Positions 2,881-24,037 of a stretch of 24,698 nucleotides of DNA are shown piece by piece. The first letter of the stretch is position 1; each line of letters opens with the position of its first letter. This DNA comes from an uncultured archaeon (GTDB lineage: Archaea > Asgardarchaeota > Lokiarchaeia > Sigyniarchaeales > SOKP01), in contig CAYLZE010000074.1 of the NCBI GenBank assembly GCA_964388035.1, forward strand, positions 1-24,698, in the 5' to 3' direction. A model generated the notes under the pieces. The model made no database searches, had not been told where the DNA came from, and was given only the letters and a program-made list of their open reading frames with translations. The translations under genes were made by a program, and so were the position numbers.

Positions 2881-3279
2881 TTATTTTTCAAGATTAGGTT
2901 CCTCAACGGAAGGTTTTTTCCCGCGCAAGATTCGAATGTAATATCCTAACGCTCCACCGAGAGCCCCGAATAAAGTACCCATACCAAGAATGAGTAACAA
3001 AATCAGCCAACCAAATCCCTTACTGATAAAAAGAGCACCAATTTGGTCCAATATAACATAGGCATTGATTGTGATTATAAAATATGTAACATAGATTCCC
3101 CAAAAAATTAAGGTCCCTAGGGCTCCACTAAGGATACTTTTCTTCATTTTTACGTTAAAATAACCGCCCACAATCCCAGCGATGATTACAAGTTGCCATA
3201 GCGGTATCAAGCTTAAAAGGCCCGCTAAAATAGCTGTAATTAAAATTCCCAAGCCGAACATTTTGCGTTCTTCGTCCAT
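2881..3279 (-). CDS. Small Gly-rich membrane protein (possibly DUF5518-like), coupled to the penicillin acylase gene
   Basis: Hydrophobic, with IAGIVGGYF and GALGGALG motifs. The ATG at 3279 lies 7 nt after a GGAGGTG site within the end of the upstream gene. Confidence 0.8.
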   Translation of the reverse strand: MDEERKMFGLGILITAILAGLLSLIPLWQLVIIAGIVGGYFNVKMKKSILSGALGTLIFWGIYVTYFIITINAYVILDQIGALFISKGFGWLILLLILGMGTLFGALGGALGYYIRILRGKKPSVEEPNLEK

Positions 3280-3281
3280 AT

Positions 3282-5876
3282 TCAAGCACCTCCATTAGGT
3301 AAAAAGTATATAGTGGATTCAATTTCTCTTCGTGGAAAATTTGCTGCTGTGTTTGTAAAGAATTGATAATGATATTTACCGTTTATAAACAATTCTTCTA
3401 ATTGATCAGCATAATGTTTTGAACTGGTAATGCCTCTTTCGCCCGAAGGAATGACGCTTCTGGAATTATTAAGATCACTAAGATCGACAATTAATCTTTC
3501 AGAAGAACCTCCTCTAGCAGATCGTACACTAGTAGCCCCTATACTGATTGCAGAAGGAGTAACCGTGTATCCTTCTCCACCAAATTCAAAGGGTCCTTCA
3601 CTTAATGCTCTGAGTCCGGTTATGTGTAAAAATTCTTCTTTGTGAATCCTTCTATATATCCAATCAGAGGGATTGTCTGAACCATAATAATTCTCTATCC
3701 AATCAATTGCAGAATTTAAAGCCGTTAAAATAATATAATCTCTTGTTTCCACGGTTCCGTTTGTGTTCACATTATCAAACCAATGAGAATTTTTTTGCTG
3801 TTTCATCAAGTATTCCAAGACATTTAATCCGGGGCCGCGCGCAACCCCATACTTCGTAAATTCATCATCAAAAGTATAATCATAGAAGTAATCTCTGAAC
3901 ACGCGATATATTGTAGGGGCAACTTGATCTTCTCTCATCACATAATCCCACCCCAAGAGTTCATTTAAAATTTGTTGTATTTGTTCTGGTGCATTTGAAC
4001 CATATTTTTTCTGTATTGCTAAGATTAAGTAGGGAGTATACGCTTCAGCAACGGAAGATTTAATATCAAGTTGATAGGTCATCATTTTTTCTACATCTAT
4101 ACTAAAATCGGAAGCAGTAGAAAGCATTTCATTGATTCGCCTTGCTCGATATCCCGCAGCATATTCACTTTGAAGTTTTGGATATTGAGGTCCTGCCACT
4201 AATTGATTAGCTGAAGCGAGATAATGTTGTTCGGGGTTAATTGTGTTAGGTAATTCAGAAAATGGAACATAACCAGTCCATTCTCCTTCTCCCCTCGAAC
4301 CATCATATGGAAAACGCCCGTCTCCTGAACGAATTGGAACTTTTCCTGTAGGTCTTATAGCAATATTTCCCTTCACATCTGCATAGACAATATTTTGGGC
4401 AAGACCTGACCAGTATCTTGATGCTCTATCAAAATCTGCCCTATTTTTCGCATGATTAAATCCATATCCGGCAAGGAAATTATAAAAATAGTCTTGTGAA
4501 GTCCACTTCACAGCGATTACGACATCACCCAGACGGGAAGAGAAACCAAAATCCTGTAAATCACTTAATACAGGACCGTGTACTGTTTCTTTAACTGTAT
4601 ATTTTACTGGAGCTTGCCCTTTCACGTTTATCGTGTAATTAATTGTATCATATTTGGTGACTTTCTTATTATAGATATAATGATTTGCATCAACCTTGTC
4701 ATAGTAATAAAAATCCATCACATCATAACCCGTATTAGTAAAACCCCAAGCAACATTTTCATTGTGCCCAACTGCTGGTAAAGGCATTCCTGGAATAGCA
4801 AATCCATAAGTATTCAGCCCCGTATCGTTCGCAACCAGGTGCATTTCGTACCAGATTCCCGGCATTGTCCAAGACAAATGCATATCATTGCATAAAATGG
4901 GTGCGCCCGTTGTGGTTTTAATGCTATCGACTACCCAATTATTAGAACCTACTAATTCTTCATTCTCCATTTCTTGTTGTCCCAGGTCTACTTCTTCCAT
5001 TCCTTCTAGAAATGTTGAAAATGCACTTCCTAATGAATCGTCTGATTGCGTGCTTACTTGACCAGTTAAACTTACAGTTTGTTTTACTTCAGGAGAAGCG
5101 GGAGCCTCAGGATATTTCCCATAATTTGGACAGATTGGAATTTGATAGGGAGTAGGAAGTCCAAATAATTCGTTGTATTTTGCCGGACCTAATGCGTTAA
5201 GATTAAGAAAGCGGTATACATCACCATAGCTCCAGGATAAAGTGTAAGCCATTAATTGTACGAGACAAGAAGAATCTAAGGTTGTCCAATTAGTCGGTTT
5301 AAAATCTAATAAACTATATTCAAGAGGTATATCATTCGGATGGCTATTAATATAATAATTTATCCCCGCAACGTAATTTTCTAAACTCGGATAAAATCCC
5401 ATGTTACTTGCACCTTGCATCTCCTTTAATTTCAAGTCGGTTTTATTCGCCCAATATTCCATTTCCGTGGATTTTAAAAATTTATCGGTCTCTATATAAT
5501 CGGGCCCCAGAACTTCCGAGAGCATTCCCCTGACCTCGCGGCGCATCATATCCATCTGAAAAAGCCGATCTTGGGCATGTAAATATCCCACCGCAAAAAA
5601 CATGTCATGTTCATAATCCGCATAGACATGAGGGATTCCCCATTGATCTCTGATCACGATTACTTTGCCTTTAAGATTAGGAAGATCTAGAGTTTCTTCC
5701 TCTGGAACTTCGCCGGGAGTTTTCCAAAGACCATCTCCCGGAAAAAGAAATTTACCTAACGGAGGAATTAACCCTAAAGGTATGGAAAAAACCGTGAAAC
5801 TGATGATGGTGACTGCGATGACGAGTACAAGTTTTTTTTTCAACTTACTATCGAGATTTTGCATGATTTTAACCAT
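3282..5876 (-). CDS. Penicillin acylase family Ntn-hydrolase (peptidase S45), N-terminally membrane-anchored
   Basis: IRDQWGIPHVYA, GYLHAQDRLFQMD, nucleophile motif GSNNWVV, NDMHL, WYEMHL, QNIVYAD, SANQ, YRARRI; hydrophobic N-terminal helix. Confidence 0.95.
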   Translation of the reverse strand: MVKIMQNLDSKLKKKLVLVIAVTIISFTVFSIPLGLIPPLGKFLFPGDGLWKTPGEVPEEETLDLPNLKGKVIVIRDQWGIPHVYADYEHDMFFAVGYLHAQDRLFQMDMMRREVRGMLSEVLGPDYIETDKFLKSTEMEYWANKTDLKLKEMQGASNMGFYPSLENYVAGINYYINSHPNDIPLEYSLLDFKPTNWTTLDSSCLVQLMAYTLSWSYGDVYRFLNLNALGPAKYNELFGLPTPYQIPICPNYGKYPEAPASPEVKQTVSLTGQVSTQSDDSLGSAFSTFLEGMEEVDLGQQEMENEELVGSNNWVVDSIKTTTGAPILCNDMHLSWTMPGIWYEMHLVANDTGLNTYGFAIPGMPLPAVGHNENVAWGFTNTGYDVMDFYYYDKVDANHYIYNKKVTKYDTINYTINVKGQAPVKYTVKETVHGPVLSDLQDFGFSSRLGDVVIAVKWTSQDYFYNFLAGYGFNHAKNRADFDRASRYWSGLAQNIVYADVKGNIAIRPTGKVPIRSGDGRFPYDGSRGEGEWTGYVPFSELPNTINPEQHYLASANQLVAGPQYPKLQSEYAAGYRARRINEMLSTASDFSIDVEKMMTYQLDIKSSVAEAYTPYLILAIQKKYGSNAPEQIQQILNELLGWDYVMREDQVAPTIYRVFRDYFYDYTFDDEFTKYGVARGPGLNVLEYLMKQQKNSHWFDNVNTNGTVETRDYIILTALNSAIDWIENYYGSDNPSDWIYRRIHKEEFLHITGLRALSEGPFEFGGEGYTVTPSAISIGATSVRSARGGSSERLIVDLSDLNNSRSVIPSGERGITSSKHYADQLEELFINGKYHYQFFTNTAANFPRREIESTIYFLPNGGA
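3287..3293 (-). promoter_or_regulatory. Shine-Dalgarno site GGAGGTG
   Basis: The minus strand reads aatGGAGGTGcttgaatATG. Confidence 0.7.
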
Positions 5877-6019
5877 ATATTTTATAATTTGATTTTTTAG
5901 ATTTCTTGAAATTAATTGATTTATTTGTAAAATTAAGTTGAAATAAAATAGATCCTATCTTTCATATAAAGATTTTTATTAATCTTTATAGATGGATGGA
6001 CAATGAAAAAAGTAGCAAG

Positions 6020-6937
6020 CTATTTTATTAGGTTTGAAATTAAAATATCGATAAACTCCAATTTTGCCTCATCATCACAAAAGTCAAAGCAATAAGAAAT
6101 GGGACTTGATTCCTTTCTCTTTTCTGCTATCGAATATTTTCCCGGTATTTTTTCGGTATCAATTTCAAGAAATAAATCCGTGCTCTTAAAAAGGTGAGGT
6201 TCAAGGAGAAAAATGGGAACACAAGTATCAAAAGGGAAAAATCCATTAATACCCCAATAAGATTTCTGAAGCTTGATCCAAGGCCTCACGTTTTTCGCAA
6301 TATATTGGGGTATTGGTTTATTTACCGCTTCCAATTCTTTTACGTGTTCCTCCGTAATGATCGCCTTACAACATACTTCTAAGCCCATTTGAATCCGAGG
6401 AGTTTTAGTCTCGACTTCTAAAGCTATTTTTGTGGCTTGAGGATCCCTGTAGCTGTTAAACTCGCATAGAACTTGCTGTAAGGGAGCTTTTTCATAGAAG
6501 TTATTAAAGCTTGGGCTTACTAAAAAAATCGGAGCTAAGAGTCCCGCCATAATAACTACCTGTTTGAGATCATCAAAAAATTCGGGGTATTGCATGAGGG
6601 CAGTAGCAACATTCGTAAAAGGGCCCAATGTAAGAAGCGTCAATTCATTTGTATTTTCTTTTACTTCCTTAATTAAGAAGTCAGAGGCTTCGGTAGATAC
6701 TCCCAATTTTCGGTTGTTTTTTGCCCCCAATTTAACAGGAATATCAATTCTCTCAGCAAGAGTGAGGTAGTCTTTCACCAAGGCATACCCTTTATCTACG
6801 CGCGTATTTCCAAATACGGTAGTAATTCCTTCAATTTCAAATTCCGGATTGTTCAGCATTAAAAATAGGGCTAATCCATCATCCACGTCTGCTCCTTGTT
6901 GACCAAGGCCAGGATCAGTATCCACTAATATCCGCAT
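6020..6937 (-). CDS. Nucleoside hydrolase (IU-NH family), atypical active site
   Basis: ILVDTDPG...DVDD, ITTVFGN, LLTLGPFTNVA and EFNSYRDPQA. The ATG at 6937 is preferred as the start. Confidence 0.9.
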   Translation of the reverse strand: MRILVDTDPGLGQQGADVDDGLALFLMLNNPEFEIEGITTVFGNTRVDKGYALVKDYLTLAERIDIPVKLGAKNNRKLGVSTEASDFLIKEVKENTNELTLLTLGPFTNVATALMQYPEFFDDLKQVVIMAGLLAPIFLVSPSFNNFYEKAPLQQVLCEFNSYRDPQATKIALEVETKTPRIQMGLEVCCKAIITEEHVKELEAVNKPIPQYIAKNVRPWIKLQKSYWGINGFFPFDTCVPIFLLEPHLFKSTDLFLEIDTEKIPGKYSIAEKRKESSPISYCFDFCDDEAKLEFIDILISNLIK

Positions 6938-7137
6938 GATATGGGTTACCAAATGATCCACTACATTTAAAATGTCACGGTAGTAGCGTACCGAAAAGGA
7001 ACCTTTTTTTATAATACTTTCATGCTAGTCTAAAATTGAGAGCTTTATTAAGAAATTAATCCCTTCTCCTTAAATATTAAAAAAAGTATTTAAAATATTG
7101 AATATATTGAATTTCTATAATAAAGCGTTGTAAGAAA

Positions 7138-10002
7138 ATGAGCAAACAGCTTAATTCAAAGAAGGAATATTATTTAAAGACCATTAGTGATTTACAATTA
7201 GAATTCGAAACAAATATAGAATATGGAATTAAAGCTTCAGAATTGAATGCTAGATATGACAAATATGGTTTCAATGAATTACCAAAAATCAAAAAATCCC
7301 TTTGGAAAATATATTTAGCCCCGATATTTAATATTTTAATCATAATTTTATTGGTCTCAGCTATTTTCGTAGTTATTTTAGGCGATATTAGCTCTACAAT
7401 AATTACATTTAGTGTGGTGATTCTCAATTCTGTCACCTTGATAATTCAACAATATAGAGCACGAAAAGCGTTAGAATCATTAAGAAAGATTGCTGCTTTA
7501 AAAGCGAATGTTATGAGGGATGGAAGGGAGCTTGAAATTCCCACCAGAGAACTCCTGCCTGGAGATATCATTTTAATCAGTGAAGGAGCTAAAGTTCCTG
7601 CTGATGCCCGAATAATTGAAGCTGTAAATCTATCTCTTGATGAAGCACCCTTAACGGGAGAAAGTGAACCCGTGGAAAAGGACGATATGGTGTTGAATAA
7701 ATCTAATTTACCGCTTCAAGAACAATTAAACATGATATTCATGGGGACTTTCGTGGATACGGGACGGGCAAAAGCTCTGGTCGTTGGAACCGGCCTTAAT
7801 ACGGAAATAGGGAAAATATCTACCCAATTGAACGAGATGGGTAGTATTGAAGATATTCCCTTAACTCACAAATTAAACCGACTTGGCTACATCCTCGGAA
7901 CCATGGTGGTACTTATTCTTATCTCTTCAGTGATTGATAAACTAATCTTATTAGATTTAGAAGGAACCTTATATGGTGAGTATATTAATAATGCTTTAGT
8001 AGATTCTATTTTAACGGCAATGAATATTATGCCGGTTAATTTACCAATCTTAGCCACGTTAGTGTTAGTAACGGGAATATTAAACATGGCACGAAGCGGA
8101 GTAATTGTTAAAAATATGGCCGCAATCGAATCATTAGGGCGGGTTTCTGTGATAGTTTCCGATAAAACAGGAACTATTACTCGAAATGAAATGACGGTAG
8201 GCTTTTTTTGGATTAATAACCATGAATTTTCTGTTTCGGGGACGGGATATGAAGCGGATGGAGAAATATTTGATGACGGAATGATAGCAGATTTCACTCA
8301 TGATTTGACTTTCAAAAGGTTCATTGATTCGATTATTATAAATAATAATGCGAAACTAATCCGTGACAATGTAAAAATACGCGCAAAAGATAAAAAGCAA
8401 ATTTCGGTAAGAAGAGCAGTAGGTTCTCCAACTGAAGCAGCTTTATTAGTTTTGGTAGAAAAGGTCAACATTATACCTCAAGATGTAAAACAAGATTATA
8501 CCAATCTTAAAGAATTTTCCTTTAATTCAGAATTAAAGCAAATGACAACGGTATGCAAGTTAAATTCAGACGGTGAAATTTATGCATATTCTAAGGGTGC
8601 TCCAGAGAAAATCTTAGATCTTTGTTCTAATATTGAAGCAAACGGTAATTCTATTCCTTTCTCTGCTAGCTCTAAAAATGAGCTAATAAACAATATTCAA
8701 AATCGTGCTCGACAAGGTTACAGAATCCTAGCTGTTGCGTATCGGAAACTCAATCATTTTGAGAATGAAAAGAGGAAAACGATTGAAAATAATTTAACTT
8801 TTCTAAGTTTTGTTTCGATATTGGACCCCCCACGTAAAGGAGTTAGAGAATCAGTTGAAGAAGCTCAAAACGGTGGTGTGAAAGTGGTCATGATCACGGG
8901 TGATCACCCCGCAACTGCAATGACGATTGCATCCCAGATGGAGATTTATAAACCAGGAGACTTAATTGTTGAAAGCTCCGAAATAGATAATTTATCTACG
9001 GAAGAATTTAATAAAGTCTCTGTTTTTGCAAGAGTAAATCCTTCAGATAAGCAAGTTATTGTTAAACGCTACCAAGAGCAAAATAAGATTTGTGCGATGA
9101 CCGGGGATGGAATCAATGATGCTCTTGCGTTAAAGCTTGCTAATGCAGGGATCGCCATGGGTATAACCGGTACAGATGTTGCAAAAGAAACGTCAGACAT
9201 GGTAATATCCGATGATAATTTTACGTCGATAGTTAATGGAATTAAAATTGGTAGGGGTTTATTTTCTAAAATAAGAACGATAATTTATTTTTTTATCAGC
9301 CTTAATATCATGGAAGCATTTATCTTTTTTACATATGAATTCATCCCTTCTATTCAGTTATTTAGTTCTCAATGGCAACATGTTTATATATTTGCAATCG
9401 CTCATTCTTTTCCCTCTCTTGCTCTCGTGGGGGATAGAATTCCATTAGGTGTAATGAAAGAACCCCCGAGAAATAAAGAAGAACTCTTAAATAAGAACAT
9501 GTGGGTCATGCTTATTGTTCAAGTAGCAATAATGGGTTTGGGACTCGTGTTAGCCTTCCAACTCACCCTTGAAGGCGTTATTCCATTAAATAAGTGGAAT
9601 TTAAATCCCTTAATTAGTTATTTACCACCTGGTTCTACTCACGAGCAATTAATAGAACAAAAAGCACGCACGATGTTCATTACTTCCTTATATATTGCGG
9701 AAACCACTTTTATTTGGACTTTTCGTAGACCGAATAAATCAATATTCCAGAGTCTTCGAAATGAATTATCGAAATTAATATTAGTAGTAACTATAGCTAC
9801 TTTGGGATTACACGTATTATTTATAAGTTTCTCGTATCCCGTAAATCACTACGTTAACGATGTGCTGGGATGGAACTTCCAATTTAATTTCATGTATCTA
9901 AGTATCACTGATTGGTTAATTTGTATCGCATTGGCGATTCCTGGTCATATGGGGATTGAAATATTTAAACTATATGCACGTAAGCGGAAAATCTTCTTTT
10001 AA
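7138..10002 (+). CDS. P-type ATPase with a P2 (SERCA-like) scaffold and non-canonical membrane binding site; substrate unknown
   Basis: LTGES, SDKTGT, KGAPE, DPPR, MITGDH, FARVNP and TGDGINDALAL are all intact. M4 reads PVNLP instead of PEGLP. Confidence 0.95.
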   Translation: MSKQLNSKKEYYLKTISDLQLEFETNIEYGIKASELNARYDKYGFNELPKIKKSLWKIYLAPIFNILIIILLVSAIFVVILGDISSTIITFSVVILNSVTLIIQQYRARKALESLRKIAALKANVMRDGRELEIPTRELLPGDIILISEGAKVPADARIIEAVNLSLDEAPLTGESEPVEKDDMVLNKSNLPLQEQLNMIFMGTFVDTGRAKALVVGTGLNTEIGKISTQLNEMGSIEDIPLTHKLNRLGYILGTMVVLILISSVIDKLILLDLEGTLYGEYINNALVDSILTAMNIMPVNLPILATLVLVTGILNMARSGVIVKNMAAIESLGRVSVIVSDKTGTITRNEMTVGFFWINNHEFSVSGTGYEADGEIFDDGMIADFTHDLTFKRFIDSIIINNNAKLIRDNVKIRAKDKKQISVRRAVGSPTEAALLVLVEKVNIIPQDVKQDYTNLKEFSFNSELKQMTTVCKLNSDGEIYAYSKGAPEKILDLCSNIEANGNSIPFSASSKNELINNIQNRARQGYRILAVAYRKLNHFENEKRKTIENNLTFLSFVSILDPPRKGVRESVEEAQNGGVKVVMITGDHPATAMTIASQMEIYKPGDLIVESSEIDNLSTEEFNKVSVFARVNPSDKQVIVKRYQEQNKICAMTGDGINDALALKLANAGIAMGITGTDVAKETSDMVISDDNFTSIVNGIKIGRGLFSKIRTIIYFFISLNIMEAFIFFTYEFIPSIQLFSSQWQHVYIFAIAHSFPSLALVGDRIPLGVMKEPPRNKEELLNKNMWVMLIVQVAIMGLGLVLAFQLTLEGVIPLNKWNLNPLISYLPPGSTHEQLIEQKARTMFITSLYIAETTFIWTFRRPNKSIFQSLRNELSKLILVVTIATLGLHVLFISFSYPVNHYVNDVLGWNFQFNFMYLSITDWLICIALAIPGHMGIEIFKLYARKRKIFF

Positions 10003-10005
10003 GTG

Positions 10006-10034
10006 TTTCCTTTTTTCCCTTTTTTCTCTCTTTT
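10006..10034 (+). terminator. Pyrimidine/oligo-T tract, likely terminator
   Basis: A T/C-only run follows the ATPase stop. Mirror A-tracts at about 10090-10123 would serve the convergent GH3 gene. Confidence 0.45.
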
Positions 10035-10124
10035 CATAAAGAGACGGATAAATATGTAATAGGAACCAACTATTACGCTAAAATTATTAAGAAAAAGTTA
10101 AGAAAAGGTTTTTTAAAAAAAAAA

Positions 10125-12185
10125 TTATTTTTTGAATTCGATTTGAGTGGATAATGGAAGAGCACGGGAGGAGGATCCCGCCCAAATTGTGAACATTCCC
10201 GTTTCAGCGATAAAATCATGGTCTTTCTCTGAGTAAAATTCGAATGCTGTCTCGTCCAACTCAATGGAAACGGTTTTTTTCTCTCCGGAATTCAAAAATA
10301 CTTTTTCAAATCCTTGTAATTCTTTGGGCGGGCGGTCAACGGAACATTCATCATCTCCTACATAGATTTGAACTATTTCTGCTCCCGCCGCTTTTCCGGT
10401 ATTATTGACATCAACAGAAACCGTGAAGTTTCCCTTGCCTTGAAGGTTTGCTTTATTAACCCGGATATTGGACATCTCAAAAGTCGTATATGAAAGCCCA
10501 TATCCGAAAGGAAAAAACGGTTCGACTTGCTGCTTATCGAAAAATCGATATCCTACATAAATTCCTTCCCCAAAATATATTTTCAAATTCTCCAAATCTC
10601 CTGGAAAACGATTTGGGGATTTATGCGCAGGATGGTCTTCCAATTTCTTTGGATATGTTACGGGTAGCTTGCCTGAGGGACTTACTTCACCAAAAAGCAC
10701 GCGAGCAAGTGCTATTCCTCCCATCATGCCGGGATACCAAGCATTTAAAATGGCGGGAACGCTGTCATACCATTCGGAACAATCGATGGGACTGCCCACT
10801 ATCAAGATTAACACCGTATTTGGATTTTTTGCTGATATATCTTTTATTAGTTGTACTTGATCCTCAGGTAATCCATAATGCGTGCGATCTTTTCCTTCTG
10901 CATCCGCTTCAGTATGAACAAAAAGTGTTTTGAAGATGCTTCCGCCGTGGTCAAGACCCACTATCAAGAAAACAACGTCAGCATTTTCAGGTTCATCCAC
11001 GATCTCTGCTTTTCCAGACACGTAATCGCTTATTCCTTCAAAAGGAGTCACAAATTTGGGGGGAATAACGGCAGAACTTCCTCCATTTAAGGGCTTTCCA
11101 AACTTTTTATCTGAATTCGGACCGAGGATAGCAATCTTTTTGACTTCATTAAGATTTATAGGAAGCAGATTTGATTCATTTTTAAGCAATACCATGCCTT
11201 CTTCTGCAATTTGTTGGGCAATTGCTTGATGTTCTGGGATATCTGAAACTTTTTCGTGGATGTCTTGTTCTTGTTCAATCAATCCGACGCGAATAAAACT
11301 AAGTAGAAGGGGTTTTATCACATGATTTATATCTTCTTCACTAATCTCTCCTGAATTTAACGCACTTTTAACTTTCTTGGGGGTCATTACCATGCTTAAA
11401 AGGTTTCCTGGCATTTCTAAATTAAGGCCCGCTTTTATGCAAGATGCCGCCCCAGCGGTATTTCGTGCCGCCCCCCAATCTGAAACAACATGACCCGAGA
11501 ATCCCAGTTGGTCTCTTAGGATCTCGCGGAGCGCATGCTTATTTTCAGCACCATATACTCCATTGATTTTATTATAACAGCACATCAAACCCCAAGGATT
11601 TGATTTTTCAATAATTCGCTTGTAATTTTTAACGTAAATTTCTTGGAAGGGGCGCTCTTTAATTTCCGTGCTAATTGTCATTCTCTTGGTTTCAGAGTTA
11701 TTAGTTATATAATGTTTAATACATGCAGCTATCTTTTGAGATTGAATGCCCTTAACTACTTCTGCAGCAATATCAGAAGATAGGATGGGATCTTCGCTGA
11801 GATATTCAAAATTACGCCCGCACAAGGGACTGCGAATTATATTCACGCCAGGCCCTAAAATTTGATGCCGTCCCGCTAACCTCGTTTCCTTACCCAATGC
11901 TACCCCCATCTGATATGCAAGCCTTTTATTCCACGTAGCAGATAATCCGATTGTTGAGGGAAATCTCGTGCGCTTTCCTCGATGGCTGGAATGCCACGCC
12001 ACCCCCAAAGGACCATCCGTCATCCCAAAGGGTAGAATTCCTAATCTTTTGATGGGATGGGTAGTCCAGAGGCCTCTTCCTCGGAGTAGTAGAATTTTCT
12101 CCTCTAAAGTCAGCTGTTGTAACAGATCCTCCACTCTTGCTTCCTCATCCAAGTTCGGGTCTAAATATTTCGCTTTTGTTTCCAT
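10125..12185 (-). CDS. Glycoside hydrolase family 3 (beta-glucosidase-like) with C-terminal Fn3-like domain, cytoplasmic
   Basis: MTDGPLG, GRNFEYLSEDP, CIKHY, nucleophile motif VVSDWG, VLLKN, AWYPG, PSGKLP, FPFGYGLSYT, ELQGFEKV. Start is ATG 12185 or GTG 12194. Confidence 0.95.
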   Translation of the reverse strand: METKAKYLDPNLDEEARVEDLLQQLTLEEKILLLRGRGLWTTHPIKRLGILPFGMTDGPLGVAWHSSHRGKRTRFPSTIGLSATWNKRLAYQMGVALGKETRLAGRHQILGPGVNIIRSPLCGRNFEYLSEDPILSSDIAAEVVKGIQSQKIAACIKHYITNNSETKRMTISTEIKERPFQEIYVKNYKRIIEKSNPWGLMCCYNKINGVYGAENKHALREILRDQLGFSGHVVSDWGAARNTAGAASCIKAGLNLEMPGNLLSMVMTPKKVKSALNSGEISEEDINHVIKPLLLSFIRVGLIEQEQDIHEKVSDIPEHQAIAQQIAEEGMVLLKNESNLLPINLNEVKKIAILGPNSDKKFGKPLNGGSSAVIPPKFVTPFEGISDYVSGKAEIVDEPENADVVFLIVGLDHGGSIFKTLFVHTEADAEGKDRTHYGLPEDQVQLIKDISAKNPNTVLILIVGSPIDCSEWYDSVPAILNAWYPGMMGGIALARVLFGEVSPSGKLPVTYPKKLEDHPAHKSPNRFPGDLENLKIYFGEGIYVGYRFFDKQQVEPFFPFGYGLSYTTFEMSNIRVNKANLQGKGNFTVSVDVNNTGKAAGAEIVQIYVGDDECSVDRPPKELQGFEKVFLNSGEKKTVSIELDETAFEFYSEKDHDFIAETGMFTIWAGSSSRALPLSTQIEFKK

Positions 12186-12408
12186 AAAAATCACTTAAAA
12201 GAGTCAGTTTTATACATGTTACAAGAGAACTAAATTTTTTTATATATTTAATTGTTTAGATGAAAGTATTGAATTCTTAATTAATTATTCAATATAAACT
12301 AAAATATTGCCTTTAATGACCAGCTGATGAGCATCAAGCTCTTTTAATATTCAATACAATGAATTTCTCTAACAATTCACTATAATTAGCTAGGCACGTA
12401 GAATAAAT

Positions 12409-13716
12409 TTAATAATGTCGAGGAGGCTCCCCTCTCATATCAGGAATCTTTCCTTTTAGAATGGGATCCTTAGTGTTTTCCATCCATTTTCGAAGCGTGT
12501 CTCTTAACTCATTTATTATCGATTCATTAGCAGGATTATGAATCCGGTTATCCATTTCGTTCGGGTCTCTTTCTAAATCGTAGAACTCTTCGTTAGGGCG
12601 TGGATGTCTATTCTGGGATCCCATATAAATCCCCGAAGGTTCTTTTGAAATATCTCCAGGAATCTGATAAAGGACCTTGGACTCCTCGCAATTCCAGATA
12701 TATTTATAATTTTTTGTTCGGATTCCTCTAATGGGATCATAAATTTCATGGAACGTTTTTTCCGCATAAATTTCCTCCCGAAAGCCAAGATTCTCGTTTA
12801 TCAACACGGGAAGGAAACTTTTTCCTTCTATCTTCTTAGGGGGTTCTCCTCCGATAAAGTCTATTAACGTTGGAAAAAGGTCAATATTGCTAATCATCTG
12901 ATCAATTATTTTTCCTCCACTGAATATCTCGGATGATGGCATGTTCATTAATAAAAGGGTTTTGATTCCGGGATCATATAACGTGCATTTTGCTCTTGGA
13001 AAAGGTAACCCATGATCCGTAGTAAAGATAAAAAGCGTATTCTCTGTCAAGTGATATCGTTGCATATCATCCCTGATCTTTCCGATAGTAGCATCTACAA
13101 GCTCGATAACGGCATAGAATTCTGCTAAGTTTTGTCTTATTGCTTCATTATCCGGTAAAAAAGGAGGTACCATTACGGTCTTAGGATCGCCAGGTTCCGC
13201 CCATGCTTGAAAGGGTAAATGGACTTCAATCGTTCCTATTTTTAAGAAAAACGGTTTTTCATCATCCTTATGTTGGGAAAAAAAATCGCTATATTGTTTT
13301 TCCATTCTCTTGCAAGAATACTTCCATTCCGCGCCTCGCTTACTCACGGTATCATAGCCCAGAGAATAGGCATCATTACTCTCGTGCTGCAATCCCAATA
13401 AATGCGTGCTATATCCATTCTCCCTCATGGCTATTGCTAAGGTTTTATTTTCTCTTGGAAGAGACCAGCCTCGATTCACTAAACCCATTAAACCATTCTG
13501 ATGAGGATAGAGAGATGTAATGATGCTCCCCCTGCTCGGACTGCATTGAGGTGCTGTACAAAAATAATTCGTGAATTTTAATCCTTCCTTGGCAATTCTA
13601 TCTAGATTAGGAGTATTGAGAGTATTAGGCGTTTGGGGAGAATCATAGCATCTTAAATATTGTCCTTGATCATGAGTGATGAATAACACGATATTTGGTT
13701 TTTTTTGACTTGACAT
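12409..13716 (-). CDS. Cys-type formylglycine sulfatase (possibly N-sulfoglucosamine sulfohydrolase-like)
   Basis: KPNIVLFITHD, TPNLDRIA, CSPSRGSIIT (CxPxR), TDHG, AKCTLYDPG, IDLFPT, FYDLERDPNE. Confidence 0.92.
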   Translation of the reverse strand: MSSQKKPNIVLFITHDQGQYLRCYDSPQTPNTLNTPNLDRIAKEGLKFTNYFCTAPQCSPSRGSIITSLYPHQNGLMGLVNRGWSLPRENKTLAIAMRENGYSTHLLGLQHESNDAYSLGYDTVSKRGAEWKYSCKRMEKQYSDFFSQHKDDEKPFFLKIGTIEVHLPFQAWAEPGDPKTVMVPPFLPDNEAIRQNLAEFYAVIELVDATIGKIRDDMQRYHLTENTLFIFTTDHGLPFPRAKCTLYDPGIKTLLLMNMPSSEIFSGGKIIDQMISNIDLFPTLIDFIGGEPPKKIEGKSFLPVLINENLGFREEIYAEKTFHEIYDPIRGIRTKNYKYIWNCEESKVLYQIPGDISKEPSGIYMGSQNRHPRPNEEFYDLERDPNEMDNRIHNPANESIINELRDTLRKWMENTKDPILKGKIPDMRGEPPRHY

Positions 13717-13935
13717 TTGAACATTACCTTTCCTATATAATTAGTTTAAAGAAAATAAGATAAAAAAATGTAAAGGAATTCTAACAAATAACTTCTTACT
13801 ATTAATATATTTTATATACATTCTTTCCTCATTTTGTAAGTTAGAGAAAAAACGTCCCTTTGAAATATCTTATACATAAAAAATTAATACTTGAATTGTC
13901 TATTATCCATTAAACTAGAATATTGTATAATTATT

Positions 13936-14160
13936 ATGGGTCAAAAAAGTAATTTGACACAATATTGGTTCAATCAAGAGGATTTAATAAAGCCTATTGA
14001 TTGGGAATACTTTAAATCACTTTTAAAAGCCACCCAAGATGCTTTGGAATTATACATGCGAGGAAAAATATCTATTGGAAAAGCTTCTGAAATCGCGCGA
14101 TTATCATATCGCGAAATGGACAGTATTCGTGCTAAAGCAAGAATCCCAATTCACATTTGA
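13936..14160 (+). CDS. UPF0175-like putative antitoxin (small HTH)
   Basis: The C-terminal ALELYMRGKISIGKASEIARLSYREM...IPI matches the UPF0175 pattern. A PIN toxin remnant follows immediately. Confidence 0.75.
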   Translation: MGQKSNLTQYWFNQEDLIKPIDWEYFKSLLKATQDALELYMRGKISIGKASEIARLSYREMDSIRAKARIPIHI

Positions 14161-14166
14161 ATTATT

Positions 14167-14265
14167 ATGATGTAAGTAATTTCCGATACTGCTCCTCTAA
14201 TATTTCAGGCAAAAAATGAGGAACTTTTATCATTTAAGGAATTGTATATAAGTGTCCTCATTCTA
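14167..14265 (+). pseudogene. Remnant of a PIN-domain toxin (DUF3368/VapC-like)
   Basis: ATG ATG TAA GTA ATT TCC GAT ACT GCT CCT CTA... translates as MM*VISDTAPLIFQAKNEELLSFKELYISVLI. This matches the PIN N-terminus VVSDTSPLIxLAKxxxLxLLxxLYxxVLIP. There is a stop at codon 3 and similarity ends after about 32 codons. Confidence 0.75.
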
Positions 14266-14344
14266 TTTTTATTATACTATATCCTAAATTATTATGAGAA
14301 ATACTTAAAGAAGCGATTAAAATTAAGCAATAAGGACATAATTT

Positions 14345-15754
14345 TCATTCAAGATTGTCCAAAAGTTTCAGTTTTTTATCCTCGTGCATTTTATCCACTG
14401 CCGTTCTAATCTCAAGATATCGCTCTTTAGTTATAGGAAATCGAGACATCATTATTAATCCAATAAATAAAGCACTCATGGGGAATACACTCAACAATAA
14501 TCGAAGTCCAAGGATTGTGTTGGCTCCGGCAACGGGGTTAAAAACTGCCCATCCTGTACTCGTGAAAACGGTGCTAATAGACAAGTAAATTAAAATAGTC
14601 GAGAGCCGAATTATCAGGGCACTTACTCCATAATATCCTCCCTCTCTCCTGACACCCGTTTTTAACTCATCATCATCAGCTATTGTTGATATTATCGGAT
14701 CCCTGAAATATAAGGAACCTGAAAATCCTATTCCTATTGCAAAAAAAGTAATGAAACCAGAAATAAGATCTGATATGAAAAGATTTGGGATTAAAACGAG
14801 AATGAATATACTCATGCTGAGTATTGCTCCTCGCTTTAAACCAACTTTTAGTGCAACCCATTTCCAAAAGAATATGAAAATGACCGCAGAAATAAACGAT
14901 ATCCCTAATAATAAACTCAATAAAAAACTTTCCCCTTCTCCAATTCCCAGAACATAAGAACCATAGAGAGGTATGATCGTGGGAAGCATTCCAAATACAT
15001 ACCACGTGGCTAAATCAGGTATAATCCAGTAGAGGAACGTTTTGTTTTTAAGAGTGAATTTAATTGATTCGAAAAACTTAGGAGCATTTTTTGCATCTTG
15101 TATGAATTCTTTTCGTTCCTTAATGCCATACTTGATAAAAATTAGTGATGAACCGATTATAACGCAAGCCATGAATAAAGCTGCGAAGATATAATTAGAT
15201 GCATATTGGGGATTATCATACTTCGGAATGAAAAAACTGGGAATAATGAAAGCAAAAATTAGTGCAATGATAGAAAATATTTGTCGAATAGAGTTAGCTC
15301 GGGCTCTATCCTCAAGATTTTGAAACATTGCGGGAAAGACGCTTACTCTATTCACGGAATAAATTGTATATACTGTATCGAATAGGATTATAATGATTAA
15401 GAAATAAAGAAATAACGGTAATTCACCATTATTAGGAGGCGTCCATAATAAAACCATCAAAATAGCTAGTGGAATAAAAGCGAGCATGATGAAGGGTTTG
15501 CGCTTTCCAAATCGAGTTTTGGTACGATCGGATATAATTCCAAGAAGAGGGGCATTAAAAGCGCTCCATATTGACCATAGGATAAAGCCTAAAGAGATTA
15601 AAATAACATTTAACTGCTTTACGGCAAAATAGAATGTAAAAATGAGAAAAGTAAACATCTGAAACGCAGACACATCAGCAAACTGCCCAAAACTATATCC
15701 TAAAGCGTCTCTGGGATTATATTCGCTTTTAATTTGTTCAGAATCTCCTTTCAA
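14345..15754 (-). CDS. MFS transporter, GPH/MelB (MFS_2) family, lacking the TM2 cation-site aspartates
   Basis: 12-TM pattern, SDRTKTRFGKRKPF, DDDELKTGVRREGGYYG. TTG start with GAGG upstream. Confidence 0.9.
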   Translation of the reverse strand: MKGDSEQIKSEYNPRDALGYSFGQFADVSAFQMFTFLIFTFYFAVKQLNVILISLGFILWSIWSAFNAPLLGIISDRTKTRFGKRKPFIMLAFIPLAILMVLLWTPPNNGELPLFLYFLIIIILFDTVYTIYSVNRVSVFPAMFQNLEDRARANSIRQIFSIIALIFAFIIPSFFIPKYDNPQYASNYIFAALFMACVIIGSSLIFIKYGIKERKEFIQDAKNAPKFFESIKFTLKNKTFLYWIIPDLATWYVFGMLPTIIPLYGSYVLGIGEGESFLLSLLLGISFISAVIFIFFWKWVALKVGLKRGAILSMSIFILVLIPNLFISDLISGFITFFAIGIGFSGSLYFRDPIISTIADDDELKTGVRREGGYYGVSALIIRLSTILIYLSISTVFTSTGWAVFNPVAGANTILGLRLLLSVFPMSALFIGLIMMSRFPITKERYLEIRTAVDKMHEDKKLKLLDNLE

Positions 15755-15819
15755 TGATTATCCTCTCATCTGTGTATTAATTAATAATTATTATAACATG
15801 GTCTTGCGATTTAAGTTTC

Positions 15820-16629
15820 CTAAAATATAATCGTTGATACCACGGGAAGATGATCAGAACCATATTCAGCAGGACAATCAAGGTTAGATATCATATCTTT
15901 TATAACATGATAATCTTGGATAGATTTATAACCTTTTACAAGAATATAATCAATACTTGCCCGATTATTTAAATCTACTATCGTTCCTGTATCAGTGAAG
16001 TATGTCAAAATAGGCTTTATCTCTTGAGATGTCCTTCCAAGATTTAAATCACCCGTTAGAACTGTAGGGTAGCTAGCTGTTGATAATTCCATGATTTTAT
16101 TCATCAAGAATTCCACCTGAACAAATTTATTTTCATTGCGAATGCCTAAATGCGTATTAAAAACATCCAAGGTAAGAGAAGGGCTTACTTGGATGACGCA
16201 ATGGATGAATACTCTTTCTTGTAACATGCTTGGGATTGGATATCCTTGGGCAGAAATTATTGGAAATTTGCTAAGAATTGTGTTACCCATGAGATGTTTA
16301 TTTTCGGGAGGATTATAATAGAAATAAAACATGTTGAGTCGTTTAGCAAGCCAAAATGCCATGTCCACACCTTGTGAAGTGATGCGCCCCGGTTCTACTT
16401 CTTGGAGTCCGACTATATCAGGATCTCCAACTAATATATTCTGAGCAATGCGTTCCAGGTTTAATAAGTCATCTCCACCTTGCCCAAAATGAATGTTGTA
16501 AGTCATGAAAGTAATCTGATTTTTACTCGGAGTTTCTGTCGGACTTTTAGCAAATCCCCATATCAAAAGAGAAGTAAATAGAGGTAACAGAAAGATGCAG
16601 ATAAATGCTATTTTAGCGTTTCTATTCAT
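15820..16629 (-). CDS. Membrane-anchored EEP (endonuclease/exonuclease/phosphatase) fold phosphoesterase, Cwh43/PGAP2IP C-domain-like
   Basis: N-terminal TM helix; MTYNIH, DIVGLQEV, ILSKFPI, NTHL, GDLN, IDYI and SDHLPV form a complete EEP catalytic set. Confidence 0.9.
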   Translation of the reverse strand: MNRNAKIAFICIFLLPLFTSLLIWGFAKSPTETPSKNQITFMTYNIHFGQGGDDLLNLERIAQNILVGDPDIVGLQEVEPGRITSQGVDMAFWLAKRLNMFYFYYNPPENKHLMGNTILSKFPIISAQGYPIPSMLQERVFIHCVIQVSPSLTLDVFNTHLGIRNENKFVQVEFLMNKIMELSTASYPTVLTGDLNLGRTSQEIKPILTYFTDTGTIVDLNNRASIDYILVKGYKSIQDYHVIKDMISNLDCPAEYGSDHLPVVSTIIF

Positions 16630-17902
16630 TAATTCTACCCTCTTTTTCCGTTTTTATATGAATTGAAATAATGGTAGTGATAGAGAAAAGGATTCCAGCA
16701 ATTAAAACTATAAAAGGGCCTGTTCCTTTCAATATTTCCAGTACATATGCCCAATCTGTGGACAAGATATGCATTATAATGAAAATTAAGTAAAAAACTA
16801 AACTTAGGGATAACGCATTTGATATTGTTTTAACTTTTTCCCATTTTAAGGTAATCTGCGTTATTTGAGCAAATAGTAGATAGAAATTTAAATACATTAT
16901 TATTAATGAACCAGAAAGCAAAATACTAATTAAAAAATTAGCAATTCCCTCAAGAAATAGAAATAAGAATAAAATGATTAGCATTAAACTATTTAAAATA
17001 ACCATTAGTTTTATATTGCTAATAACAGTACGGTCTATTTTTATTACAATAATGAGAGCTATCATGAGAGAAATGATATTAAAAATAGTATTCACATAAT
17101 AATTTGTTTGGGTATAATGTGAAATAATATTGGGATATAGGAATAAACTAAACATTAAGAAGAAGAACATGCCTATTCCTACAAAAATGAATAAATAGCG
17201 GGATGATAAAGGTTTCTTTTTACTTTCTTGAGAAATAGGTTCAAGAGAAAAGTTTAAGATACCACTTTTTGTAAAATATATAATGCCTATCGCTAAGGGA
17301 ATTTGAATAATCAACCATAGATATTGAGTTAGATACCAATAATCAGCAATTAACCCCGGAGGCAATAATGAAATATCTTCAGTAACCCCCAGAGATCGTA
17401 TTAAATAATCAATGAGAAACGCACTGAAAATAGAAAACATGACAATTATTAACTTGTTTTTTTTTTCTACGTGGATATCTTCTTCCATCCACTGTGATAA
17501 AAATATACTAATAAAAATGCAATAGAAGAGAATAGTGATACCGGAAAGAATCACCTGCCAAATATTAGGAAAATGGAAGGCGAGTAAAGTACGAGCTATT
17601 GCCGTTGTAAAAATAGAAAAATTCAATGTTCGTTTGACTCCCCACTTCTTACAAATAGTGTTAGTTAAAGCAGGTAAAATGTAAAATATTAGAGTAATTA
17701 AGATCATGAAATTTATAATAACGTCTTCTCCAAAGACTACATGAAACATGGCCACGTATACTCCCGGCACATAAGACCTTAAAGCTTGTATAAAGAAAAG
17801 AGTTAAAGAAATTAATATAAAAAGTAACTTGTATAATTGTTGAGAACCAATTTTCTGTTCAAATTCAGAAAATGAAAAATTTGATGCGATGGAGTCGTTC
17901 AT
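16622..17902 (-). CDS. Polytopic membrane protein (about 11-12 TM), translationally coupled to the EEP gene
   Basis: 426 aa hydrophobic ORF with an 8-bp ATGAATAG overlap with the EEP gene. GAGGGT lies just upstream of the EEP ATG. Confidence 0.85.
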   Translation of the reverse strand: MNDSIASNFSFSEFEQKIGSQQLYKLLFILISLTLFFIQALRSYVPGVYVAMFHVVFGEDVIINFMILITLIFYILPALTNTICKKWGVKRTLNFSIFTTAIARTLLAFHFPNIWQVILSGITILFYCIFISIFLSQWMEEDIHVEKKNKLIIVMFSIFSAFLIDYLIRSLGVTEDISLLPPGLIADYWYLTQYLWLIIQIPLAIGIIYFTKSGILNFSLEPISQESKKKPLSSRYLFIFVGIGMFFFLMFSLFLYPNIISHYTQTNYYVNTIFNIISLMIALIIVIKIDRTVISNIKLMVILNSLMLIILFLFLFLEGIANFLISILLSGSLIIMYLNFYLLFAQITQITLKWEKVKTISNALSLSLVFYLIFIIMHILSTDWAYVLEILKGTGPFIVLIAGILFSITTIISIHIKTEKEGRINE

Positions 17903-18200
17903 AAAAAAACAATAATCCGATTCAATTCAAAATAATTAATGTATAAATATTGAATGCTATGTATATAAATAGTCATTTGTTTTCATGATAATTATAAACT
18001 TTATTAATTAAAAATGCTTGATTCTCTAGGAGATAAGTTTAATCAAACAATAATTGCAAATCCCGAATCAATATATTTATTCAAAGTACCATATTATTCA
18101 TTCTTGTACTTTAAAATGTTCTCCTTTCTATTAAATAAGATTAGTGATCAAATATCTTAAAGCAAGATTTAAGTAAATTAGATTATTATTGTTTTTTAGC

Positions 18201-19274
18201 ATGAATGACTCTGATTATGAAAGGCGCATTATCGAGCGTCAGAGAAATCTTTCTGAAATCCTAGGGGTTTCCGGACATGAAGAAAAAGTAGTTAAGTTCA
18301 TTGTAGAGGAAATCGATCAATTCGTGGATAAGCATTGGATTGATTCGACGGGAAATCTCATGGCAATTATTAATGGCCCTACTGGGAGCCGAGGAATATT
18401 GCTTGATGCTCACACGGATGAGATTGGATTTATAATTTCTCACGTAGATGAAAGAGGATTTGCATATTTCGTACCCATGGGTGGATGGGATGAGCGCGTG
18501 TTATTAGGACAGAGTATAATCATAGAACCGAATGAAAAGCGGATCTATGGAGTAATAGGAGCATTACCCCCCCATATCGTGCCAGAGGAAGAGAGAAAAA
18601 AACCCGTTCCCTTAGATAAATTATTTATTGATTTTGGGTTTTCTTCCAGAGAAGAAGCGGAAAAGAAAGGTGTAAAAATTGGCACGGTAGGAACGTTATA
18701 TTCAGGATTCCAAGAATTAACGGGAGGGCGTTTAAAAGGCAAGGCATTTGATGATAGATCAGGATGCAATATACTAGTTCAAACGTTATTAAATGTTTCT
18801 GATAAAAAGCTTCCCTATACTCTCTGTTTTTCTTGGTCAACTCAGGAAGAATTGGGCCTAAGAGGTGCTAGAACCTCCGCATATTATTTGGACGAAAAAT
18901 ATCATATCGAAATGGGAATTGCTTGCGAAAACACGACAGCTGGAGATGTTCCCGGAGTTCCTCCCCAGAAATGTCCCTCTATACTTGGTAAAGGCCCCGT
19001 AATTACAATAATGGATTCTTCCATGATTGCATCTAAAAAAGTAAAAGAACGTTTGATAAAAGCAGCTGAAAAGAATAATATTCCCTACCAGTTTAGAGTA
19101 CCATCAAGAGGAGGTACGGATGCTGGCGTCATGCATTTAACCCGAGCAGGCATCCCTTGTGGGGTAGTTAGTGTTCCTGGAAGATACATCCATTCTCCAA
19201 ATACAATAATAGATAAAAATGATCTAATCAATGCAATCAATTTAGTAACGGGATTTCTACTTGATACCACTTAA
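18201..19274 (+). CDS. M42 family (TET/FrvX-like) metallo-aminopeptidase
   Basis: GVSGHE, DAHTDEIG, GKAFDDRSG, QEELGLRGA, GGTDAG, RYIHSP. Confidence 0.93.
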   Translation: MNDSDYERRIIERQRNLSEILGVSGHEEKVVKFIVEEIDQFVDKHWIDSTGNLMAIINGPTGSRGILLDAHTDEIGFIISHVDERGFAYFVPMGGWDERVLLGQSIIIEPNEKRIYGVIGALPPHIVPEEERKKPVPLDKLFIDFGFSSREEAEKKGVKIGTVGTLYSGFQELTGGRLKGKAFDDRSGCNILVQTLLNVSDKKLPYTLCFSWSTQEELGLRGARTSAYYLDEKYHIEMGIACENTTAGDVPGVPPQKCPSILGKGPVITIMDSSMIASKKVKERLIKAAEKNNIPYQFRVPSRGGTDAGVMHLTRAGIPCGVVSVPGRYIHSPNTIIDKNDLINAINLVTGFLLDTT

Positions 19275-19477
19275 ATGCTAGGCATGAGTTAAACCATATT
19301 TTTACTTAATTATCTAAATGGTTTTTTTTCCCCTCGATTCTCAGAAAGAACTTCTTGGAAAATTATCTTTTAGACTGATTTTTATGTAATGCAAGAACTT
19401 GAAAAGTGGGATTTTAAGGGGAAAAGATGAGTAATTAAACAAAAATGTTTTATATAAACAAAAATAATATCTTAATC

Positions 19478-20911: not shown

Positions 20912-21005
20912 TTTATTTACTATAAACAGTTTTTTATACAATCAAATCAAAGTATTTAAATATTTATGGTTAAATTCTCAAAATTAATCTTTTAATGATT
21001 TAAAA

Positions 21006-23736: not shown

Positions 23737-24037
23737 TCATGCCTTTGTTAAATTTTTATATCCTGAATACTTATCTTCAATTTGCTTAATTTTTTTCTGA
23801 ATTTTTAGCATTGAAGCAACTTCATTCAGATCTCCTCCTAAAAATGTTCCAATAATTCCTTTTGCAATAAAACCTCATACTTGGAAAGCATTATTCTGCC
23901 CGATAATTGTGCCAATCTTTAAATCAAAATATCCATAATATTTGGTTAAATGCTTTTAAATGAACTTTTTTCCGTTCTTATGCCCATTTTTTATTCTCTT
24001 TTATTTTTACATTTAATTCCGTGCAGATCTTTGAGAT
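23737..24037 (-). pseudogene. Possible degraded gene fragment of unknown family
   Basis: A protein-like reading (ISKICTELNVKIKENKKWA*ERKKVHL / HLTKYYGYFDLKIGTIIGQNNAFQV*GFIAKGIIGTFLGGDLNEVASMLKIQKKIKQIEDKY...) needs two stops and one frameshift. Confidence 0.25.

What the first reader, a model, noticed from the sequence alone, without database searches (positions are those of the whole stretch)
7138..10002. P2-like P-type ATPase with a hydrophobic M4 gate (PVNL) and no Ca2+ site II: candidate archaeal lipid flippase or new-substrate pump
Seen: all cytoplasmic catalytic motifs are intact, but M4 reads NIMPVNLP (PVNLP at 8032-8046). Val300 lies 42 residues before phospho-Asp342, the same spacing as SERCA E309 to D351, so the gating Glu is replaced by Val. 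M6 reads QHVYIFAIAHSFP against SERCA QLLWVNLVTDGLP, giving N796>F752, T799>A755 and D800>H756. M5 N723/E726 and M8 E855 (SERCA N768/E771/E908) are retained. Known: P2 pumps use PEGL, whereas eukaryotic P4 flippases have PISL with a hydrophobic residue at this site and P5 pumps have PP(A/E)LP. Inference: a coordinated change of the substrate site in an otherwise intact pump suggests a non-Ca2+ substrate such as a lipid, an organic ion or H+. In a probable Asgard genome it could be an intermediate or a convergent analogue of P4 flippases. It keeps TGES rather than the P4 DGET, and no CDC50-like gene is nearby, so it is not a canonical P4.
Basis: partly seen in the sequence, partly recalled or inferred. 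Interest (0 to 1): 0.82.

Follow-up and report, generated by a model that had tools for sequence, protein, structure and literature searches.

The report
Asgard pump with glutamate-histidine cargo site
This gene encodes an intact ATP-driven membrane pump from an undescribed branch of the calcium-pump family, present in about three quarters of Asgard archaea, whose cargo pocket is rebuilt around a glutamate-histidine pair, so it probably moves a small cation other than calcium; it is not a eukaryote-type lipid flippase, though a distant sister relationship is not excluded.

Summary
Every residue claim is correct and covered by contigs of public runs. The change is not decay. It marks an old clade ('PIN') found in 221 of 301 Asgard genomes and 14-16 of 251 genomes of the phylum that holds a Thermoplasmatota-labelled branch. 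In 84 diverse members M4 never carries the gating Glu, M6 carries His at SERCA D800 (83/84) and M5 E771 stays acidic (84/84); N796, T799 and the acidic M1/M2 entry residues are lost. The clade is monophyletic (100) among P2 pumps. It is not a P4: no DGET, M5 Lys, M6 Asn or CDC50, and P4 origin inside the crown clade is rejected (AU 0.03 or less). A sister position of P4 or P4+P5 to the whole clade is neither best nor rejected (AU 0.17-0.61). Best guess: a monovalent cation or H+ pump using an E726-H756 pair (0.45); lipid or organic ion 0.25; transition metal 0.15. No cargo was tested. The window gene is a third, relocated copy. The scan found this family before on other DNA and on another contig of this genome; I found no paper on it.

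The parts
7138..10002 (+). PIN-clade P-type ATPase, 954 aa, 10 TM helices with A, N and P domains; third, non-syntenic copy in this genome
7321..7332 (+). M1 P62..N65: replaces the QF-x-D of canonical P2A; entry-path acid lost
   Evidence: P 74/84, N 71/84
7426..7452 (+). M2 N97 ... Q104-Q105: QQ instead of QE (canonical E 99%)
7654..7665 (+). A-domain TGES (not the P4 DGET)
8032..8046 (+). M4 PVNLP; V300 at SERCA E309, N301 at G310; unwound 296-301 in the model
8161..8175 (+). DKTGT, phosphorylated Asp342
9103..9120 (+). P-domain GDGIND, followed by the clade-typical ALAL instead of APAL
9304..9315 (+). M5 N723 and E726 (SERCA N768, E771); Leu722 where P4 has its Lys
9376..9414 (+). M6 with F752 (N796), A755 (T799) and H756 (D800)
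9700..9702 (+). M8 E855 (SERCA E908); 79/84, replaced by Ile in one Asgard family
9958..9969 (+). M10 E941-x-x-K944, nearly invariant

Best explanation
An active P-type pump of an undescribed P2-derived subfamily, with a small monovalent cation as most likely cargo: H+ about 0.25, Na+/K+/NH4+ about 0.20. Shown: intact catalytic motifs, 10-TM P2 fold, unwound M4, clade-wide erasure of Ca site II (hydrophobic residue at E309, mostly aromatic at N796, neutral M1/M2 entry residues) and a nearly invariant E726 (M5) with H756 (M6). Inferred by homology, not measured: E726 and H756 face each other at SERCA site I, next to the M4 carbonyl cavity. They are the charge-swapped equivalent of the R655/D684 pair of the plant proton pump. 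The His either takes and releases a proton as E1/E2 changes move it against E726, or acts as a built-in counter-charge that lets a single monovalent ion bind at the M4 carbonyls, N723 and E726. The residue at 300 is then a hydrophobic gate. Direction of transport is unknown.
For: Motif counts over 84 dereplicated members: Glu at M4 0/84, acidic 726 84/84, H756 83/84, but E855 79/84, N723 75/84 and position 755 mostly hydrophobic. Two fixed ligands fit a dyad better than a full metal site. AHA2 D684 overlies SERCA D800 and R655 is equivalent to E771 (PMC5387105). ENA1, a P2 Na+/K+ pump, lacks both the M4 Glu and the M6 Asp (PMC10779151). An M6 His is proposed as built-in counter-ion in P1B-4 (PMC8880997). 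The M5-M10 profile matches SERCA best (95 bits), then SPCA1 (73) and Na,K pumps (about 50), with no P4 among the 60 listed. Foldseek ranks SPCA1 and SERCA first. The tree places the clade among P2 pumps.
Against: No biochemistry exists, and side-chain distances could not be measured on the model. The genome already holds four P3A-type and several PE-motif pumps, so a further H+ or Na+ pump is not obviously needed. AHA2 has acidic M2 entry residues, while this clade has QQ. Pocket-lining positions 300, 752 and 755 vary in size between paralogues, and gene copies reach 4-5 in one family, which would also fit a larger organic cargo.
Confidence: 0.45

Rival explanations
1. Lipid head-group or other organic-ion transporter working like P4/P5 pumps: it phosphorylates without a cytosolic ligand, binds cargo in E2P at the M4 backbone amides of P-[IV]-[NS], and uses a His held protonated by E726 as the central positive charge in place of the P4 M5 Lys.
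For: P-I-N/S-L resembles PISL, whose backbone amides bind the lipid phosphate (10.1101/666321). Acidic cation-entry residues of M1/M2 are neutralised. The pocket lining varies between paralogues. A DedA/VTT gene lies next to the pump in 12 of about 34 close Lokiarchaeia loci, upstream or downstream. P4 or P4+P5 as sister to the whole clade is not rejected.
Against: No M5 Lys, no M6 Asn, P-3 Asn only 22/84 (P4 features from PMC4937031). Phe/Trp/Met occupy the gate in 16/84, whereas Met or Phe there drastically reduces ATP8A1 transport. Two acidic residues remain. The P4 profile scores this clade and P2A alike. P4 shares 6 diagnostic columns with this clade and 9 with canonical P2. DedA is absent from the window and from the distant Asgard loci examined. 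No CDC50 match.
Confidence: 0.25
2. Transition-metal pump (Mn, Fe, Zn, Co or Ni) binding one ion at a site-I remnant formed by N723, E726, H756 and E855.
For: These four positions are SERCA site-I ligands, and Asp to His is the change expected for a softer metal (established coordination chemistry). P1B-4 pumps use an M6 His-Glu motif.
Against: E855 is Ile in four members of one Asgard family and N723 varies, so only two ligands are fixed. There is no Cys motif and no metal-binding extension. No recurring metal-homeostasis neighbour appeared among the neighbour clusters examined. The genome has P1B pumps.
Confidence: 0.15
3. Still a Ca2+ or Mg2+ pump, as automatic annotations say, using site I only or importing like P6/CtpE.
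For: The closest families and structures are P2A; CtpE imports Ca2+ without the M6 Asp (PMC10654040).
Against: [quoted passage not shown] CtpE keeps PEGL. All P2 family models score below their cut-offs.
Confidence: 0.07
4. A non-transporting ATPase or scaffold, or a decaying spare copy in the case of this particular gene.
For: The window copy is an extra third copy and deviates most from the close-homologue consensus (51 positions against a median of 7; the set is dominated by other subgroups).
Against: Open frame, all catalytic motifs and all clade-invariant site residues are kept. Its branch (0.35) is shorter than that of the syntenic copy on C44 (0.95). New polar residues fixed across two phyla imply a transport role.
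Confidence: 0.05

Closest known systems
P2A Ca2+(/Mn2+)-ATPases: SERCA, SPCA1/PMR1, Listeria LMCA1
   Same: Fold and domain layout, TGES, 29-34% identity, best PDB sequence and Foldseek matches; M5 N768/E771, M8 E908 and M10 E982 equivalents retained; tree position among prokaryotic P2 pumps.
   Different: E309 hydrophobic, G310 Asn/Ser, N796 mostly aromatic, T799 mostly hydrophobic, D800 His, M1 QF replaced by P-x, M2 QE replaced by QQ. LMCA1, SPCA and PMCA lose site I and keep site II; this clade does the opposite.
P3A plasma-membrane H+-ATPases (AHA2, Pma1)
   Same: Hydrophobic residue after the M4 Pro, M2 Asn, and an oppositely charged M5/M6 pair at the E771/D800 positions.
   Different: Charges are swapped (Glu in M5, His in M6). 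Separate clade: forcing them together costs 28.6 lnL (AU 0.10, not formally rejected), and only 2 diagnostic columns are shared against 19 for canonical P2.
P2D ENA Na+/K+-ATPases
   Same: P2-derived pump that lost the M4 Glu and the M6 Asp (IPASL, TSGLP).
   Different: ENA has small residues there, E-N-x-x-Q in M5 and no M6 His at D800. TIGR01523 score 406 against a cut-off of 645.
P4 lipid flippases (ATP8A1/2, Drs2, Neo1)
   Same: Ile/Val at the E309 position followed by a small polar residue; loss of Ca site II.
   Different: No DGET, M5 Lys, M6 Asn or CDC50; E771 and E908 kept; 17-19% structural identity; TIGR01652 score 103 against 431; crown nesting rejected.
P1B-4 metal pumps (CoaT)
   Same: A conserved M6 His proposed as built-in counter-ion or ligand.
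   Different: Different topology (8 TM), SPC motif, distant clade.

Membership tests
P-type ATPase superfamily | DKTGT, TGES-type, TGD and GDGxND motifs; A, N, P domains; unwound M4 | tested here: met
P2A Ca2+-ATPase | Site II ligands E309, N796, D800 | tested here: not met
   V300, F752, H756; 0/84 Glu in M4
P2A Ca2+-ATPase | Family model over its cut-off | tested here: not met
   TIGR01522 460 vs 798; TIGR01116 432 vs 703
P2 lineage (descent) | Branches among P2 pumps, apart from P1 and P3 | tested here: met
   deep P2 backbone unresolved; eukaryotic SERCA, PMCA, Na,K and ENA sequences were not in the trees
P4 flippase | Hydrophobic gate at E309 in a PISL-like motif | tested here: met
   PVNL here; I 61, F 8, W 7, V 4, L 3, M 1 of 84
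P4 flippase | DGET in the A domain | tested here: not met
   TGES173
P4 flippase | M5 Lys (K873) and M6 Asn (N905/N882) | tested here: not met
   L722 and F752; neither residue among the seven commonest at these columns in 84 members
P4 flippase | CDC50 subunit (P4A/C; P4B lacks it) | tested here: inconclusive
   0 of 121 genomes, but no positive control rang
P4 flippase | Common descent: P4 inside or sister to this clade | tested here: inconclusive
   Inside crown rejected (AU 0.03 or less); sister to the whole clade AU 0.17-0.32, with P5 0.61, not best in the placement scans
P4 flippase | Lipid-stimulated dephosphorylation and flipping | not testable with these tools
   needs biochemistry
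P3A H+-ATPase | M6 Asp with M5 Arg/His | tested here: not met
   His in M6, Glu in M5; TIGR01647 341 vs 615
P2D ENA ATPase | PASL-type M4, E-N-x-x-Q in M5, family model | tested here: not met
P5 ATPase | PPxLP in M4, family model, extra TM helices | tested here: not met
   TIGR01657 250 vs 618; P5 profile scores this clade and P2A alike, 135 vs 136 bits
P6 (CtpE) | PEGL kept, M6 Asp replaced by Ile | tested here: not met

The most novel reading that the evidence does not exclude
The PIN clade is the surviving archaeal sister of the eukaryote-specific P4 (or P4+P5) pumps and already moves a lipid head group or other organic cargo past a hydrophobic M4 gate, with a Glu-His pair as built-in charge. 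It would be the first prokaryotic P-type flippase and a handle on how flippases arose.
Probability: 0.12. Interest if true: 0.92.

Novelty: new variant of a known kind. Interest (0 to 1): 0.62.

Why it matters
In P-type ATPases the residues of the M4-M6 site set the cargo, and a Glu(M5)-His(M6) site with an erased site II is not in the P1-P6 scheme of the 2023 review, which expects further prokaryotic families (PMC10654040). The family is kept, mostly as one copy, in about three quarters of Asgard genomes and is expanded in Lokiarchaeia, yet databases label it a Ca2+-ATPase, and such labels feed claims about calcium handling in Asgard archaea. A single purified member would reveal a new transport chemistry. 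It would also test one route to the unexplained origin of P4 and P5 pumps.

Tried and rejected
Sequencing error: rejected. Lineage-specific decay: rejected. Bin contamination: contig C74 has ordinary tetranucleotide rank (79 of 118), GC and GC3, so there is no sign of it, though it is not excluded at 7% bin contamination. True P4 in Asgard genomes: none over the cut-off in 121 genomes. The first AlphaFold model from a narrow alignment was unusable (pLDDT 65); the second (87.7) used an alignment that was about half canonical P2A, so fold searches lean to P2. The VIA wide search gave PfATP4 33.4, SERCA 30.7, MgtA 29.7, AHA2 29.5, Neo1 28.1; these depend on conformation and do not discriminate. 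A single constrained-tree test first favoured PIN+P4 by 6.3 lnL (AU 0.61); branch-by-branch placement then showed that the P4 position is simply unresolved. Four pattern scans of viral contigs for eukaryotic P2/P5 references found nothing. Neighbours give no operon clue: no conserved context beyond family level, and the window's neighbours are catabolic hydrolases. Promoter and terminator scans were at chance level. No RNA holder was listed. Atlas searches returned only generic cation-ATPase clusters. Nine literature searches found no description of the clade; the library lacks most subscription papers. No complex prediction was run, because I do not claim a binding partner.

Full report
Observation. 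The ORF at 7138-10002 encodes a 954-aa P-type ATPase with all catalytic motifs. PVNLP lies at residues 299-303 (8032-8046), 42 residues before Asp342. They add E941 = E982. Contigs of public salt-marsh runs show the same letters over the M4 and M6 codons; one may be the source sample. The genome is 5.47 Mb, and named close homologues are Lokiarchaeota/Promethearchaeota.

It is a clade, not a broken gene. All 120 best homologues (62-74% identity) have P-x-N-L-P, E726, H756 and E855. A full-library search gave about 40 representatives at the 50% level before canonical P2A began. A profile of M5-M10 separates the clade cleanly (members 181 bits or more, canonical 123 or less). It finds members in 221 of 301 Asgard genomes (71 of 90 high-quality ones), with whole families lacking it in the sample. 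A deep branch with PWSFP is labelled Thermoplasmatota and occurs in 14-16 of 251 genomes of that phylum. Over 84 dereplicated members: position 300 is I 61, F 8, W 7, V 4, L 3, M 1 and never Glu; 301 is N 73 or S 9; 726 is acidic in all; H756 83; E855 79; N723 75; E941 83; K944 K or R in all; 752 is mostly F/Y. Against canonical P2A the clade also changed M1 QF to P-x, the M1 Asp mostly to Asn, and M2 QE to QQ. So site II and the acidic entry path are erased, and the fixed core is E726 with H756. E855 is Ile in four members of one family. The one sequence without H756 also changed E855, N723 and N301.

This copy. Relatives in the same family usually have two tandem copies; this genome has three. 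The pair on contig C44 sits in the conserved neighbourhood (TFIIB-like gene, optional DedA). The window copy stands alone between a nucleoside hydrolase and a GH3 gene. It groups with P0002-P0008 (72-74%), of which P0002 was seen in the tandem arrangement. Its branch is 0.35, against 0.95 for the syntenic C44 copy. I read it as a duplicated or transferred orthologue that is still constrained (inference). Contig composition is ordinary.

Structure. The AlphaFold model (pLDDT 87.7, pTM 0.82) shows ten helices and an unwound M4 at 296-301. Foldseek ranks SPCA1 and SERCA first (TM up to 0.85). The alignment behind the model contained P2A rows, and I could not read coordinates, so the E726-H756 contact rests on SERCA homology and is not measured.

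Relation to P4. Features that define P4 (PMC4937031; 10.1101/666321) are mostly missing: no DGET, no M5 Lys, no M6 Asn, and the P-3 Asn is variable. No CDC50 match was found, and no Asgard protein passes the P4 model. Phe, Trp and Met occur naturally at the gate, although Met or Phe there cripples ATP8A1. A profile of 17 metagenomic P4s scores this clade and P2A equally, and diagnostic columns shared with P4 number 6 for this clade and 9 for canonical P2. In trees the clade is monophyletic (100) among P2 pumps. One constrained test slightly favoured joining it with P4 (6.3 lnL, AU 0.61), so I placed P4 on all 81 backbone branches under LG+C20. The best places were beside other divergent P2 pumps. 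Sister to the whole clade cost 1.8-2.4 lnL (AU 0.17-0.32, RELL 1-2%). Places inside the crown, including next to this gene, were rejected (AU 0.03 or less); the deepest inner branches were borderline (about 0.05-0.1). Adding the site columns did not help. With P5A present, P4 and P5 join (possibly long-branch attraction). P4+P5 as sister to the clade costs 1.7 lnL (AU 0.61, RELL 16%), and P4 alone as sister is marginally rejected (AU 0.025). The trees lack eukaryotic P2, P4B and P5B rows, and the backbone was held fixed. Conclusion: not a P4 and not a crown ancestor of P4; deep sisterhood is unresolved. This is weaker than an earlier scan note that it is 'not a relative'.

How it most likely works. 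P3A proton pumps also have a hydrophobic residue there (the genome's own PVALP pumps), and the P2D pump ENA1 moves Na+/K+ with IPASL and no M6 Asp (PMC10779151). In AHA2, D684 overlies SERCA D800 and R655 is equivalent to E771; the Arg serves as built-in counter-ion (PMC5387105). E726/H756 is the charge-swapped version. An M6 His is also the proposed built-in counter-ion in P1B-4 (PMC8880997). Because only two side chains are fixed, a dyad fits better than a four-ligand metal site. I therefore favour a monovalent cation (0.45: H+ on the dyad, or Na+/K+/NH4+ with His as counter-charge). A lipid or organic ion is second (0.25): the PIN/PIS amides, neutral entry path, variable pocket lining, paralogue expansion and occasional DedA neighbour (12 of about 34 close loci, none in the distant loci examined or in the window) all fit, but the P4 ligands are absent. 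A transition metal gets 0.15 and Ca/Mg 0.07, since site II is universal in Ca pumps. These odds are judgement, not measurement.

Novelty. The 2023 review lists P1-P6, calls P4 eukaryote-only, does not mention Asgard archaea and expects more prokaryotic families (PMC10654040). The Asgard transporter survey lists only putative Ca2+, Mg2+ and Cu pumps (PMC7997004). Nine searches found no description. I class it as a new variant of a known kind: an undescribed, ancient P2-derived subfamily with an unprecedented site. Earlier notes of this scan report the same family on other DNA and on contig C44. What I add from my own tests is the Thermoplasmatota-labelled branch, the dispensability of E855, the P3A and ENA precedents, and the placement tests.

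Noticed in passing
window 23978-24293 (-): Degenerate reverse-transcriptase remnant in two frames (weak RVT_1 hit, E 8e-6), resembling pieces of a group II intron-type RT, near the contig end.
   Followed up: partly
window 15820-17902 (-): A 426-aa membrane protein without Pfam hit (Atlas features MFS-like) overlaps by 8 nt a 269-aa exo/endo-phosphatase that matches the PGAP2IP C-terminal domain (PF23226); the pair may resemble a split Cwh43/PGAP2IP-type gene.
   Followed up: partly
window 2881-22424: Dense catabolic region: penicillin-amidase family with overlapping small membrane gene, nucleoside hydrolase, GH3, sulfatase, two GPH/MFS transporters, M42 and M55 peptidases, Pab87-like serine hydrolase.
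   Followed up: no
L191:8500-11361 (G000 C44): The syntenic PINL copy has a much longer branch (0.95) than its orthologues, which suggests relaxed or shifted selection after the extra copy appeared.
   Followed up: partly
L191:6317-7339 and 5597-6208: A 341-aa gene with an N-terminal Cys-x2-Cys pattern and no Pfam hit lies upstream of the tandem pumps in 33 loci; a 204-aa membrane gene on the other strand recurs in 13.
   Followed up: partly
G000 C12:66180-68895 (L195): A P2C-like pump gene is interrupted by stops or a frameshift near its start.
   Followed up: no
G000 C3:23372-26002 (L194): Divergent pump with PEELP in M4 and Lys at the N768 position; it is one of the long branches that attract P4/P5.
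   Followed up: no
P0163, P0210: Other P2A-like proteins with PSGLP in M4 but normal M6 NLxTD, a separate loss of the gating Glu.
   Followed up: no
P0140, L043, L255, L269: Members of one Asgard family replace E855 by Ile and carry a His seven residues earlier on the same helix face.
   Followed up: partly
alignment A4 vs PDB: The clade's M5-M10 profile matches eukaryotic SERCA better than SPCA1 or LMCA1; whether this reflects kinship with SERCA was not tested because SERCA was not in the trees.
   Followed up: no
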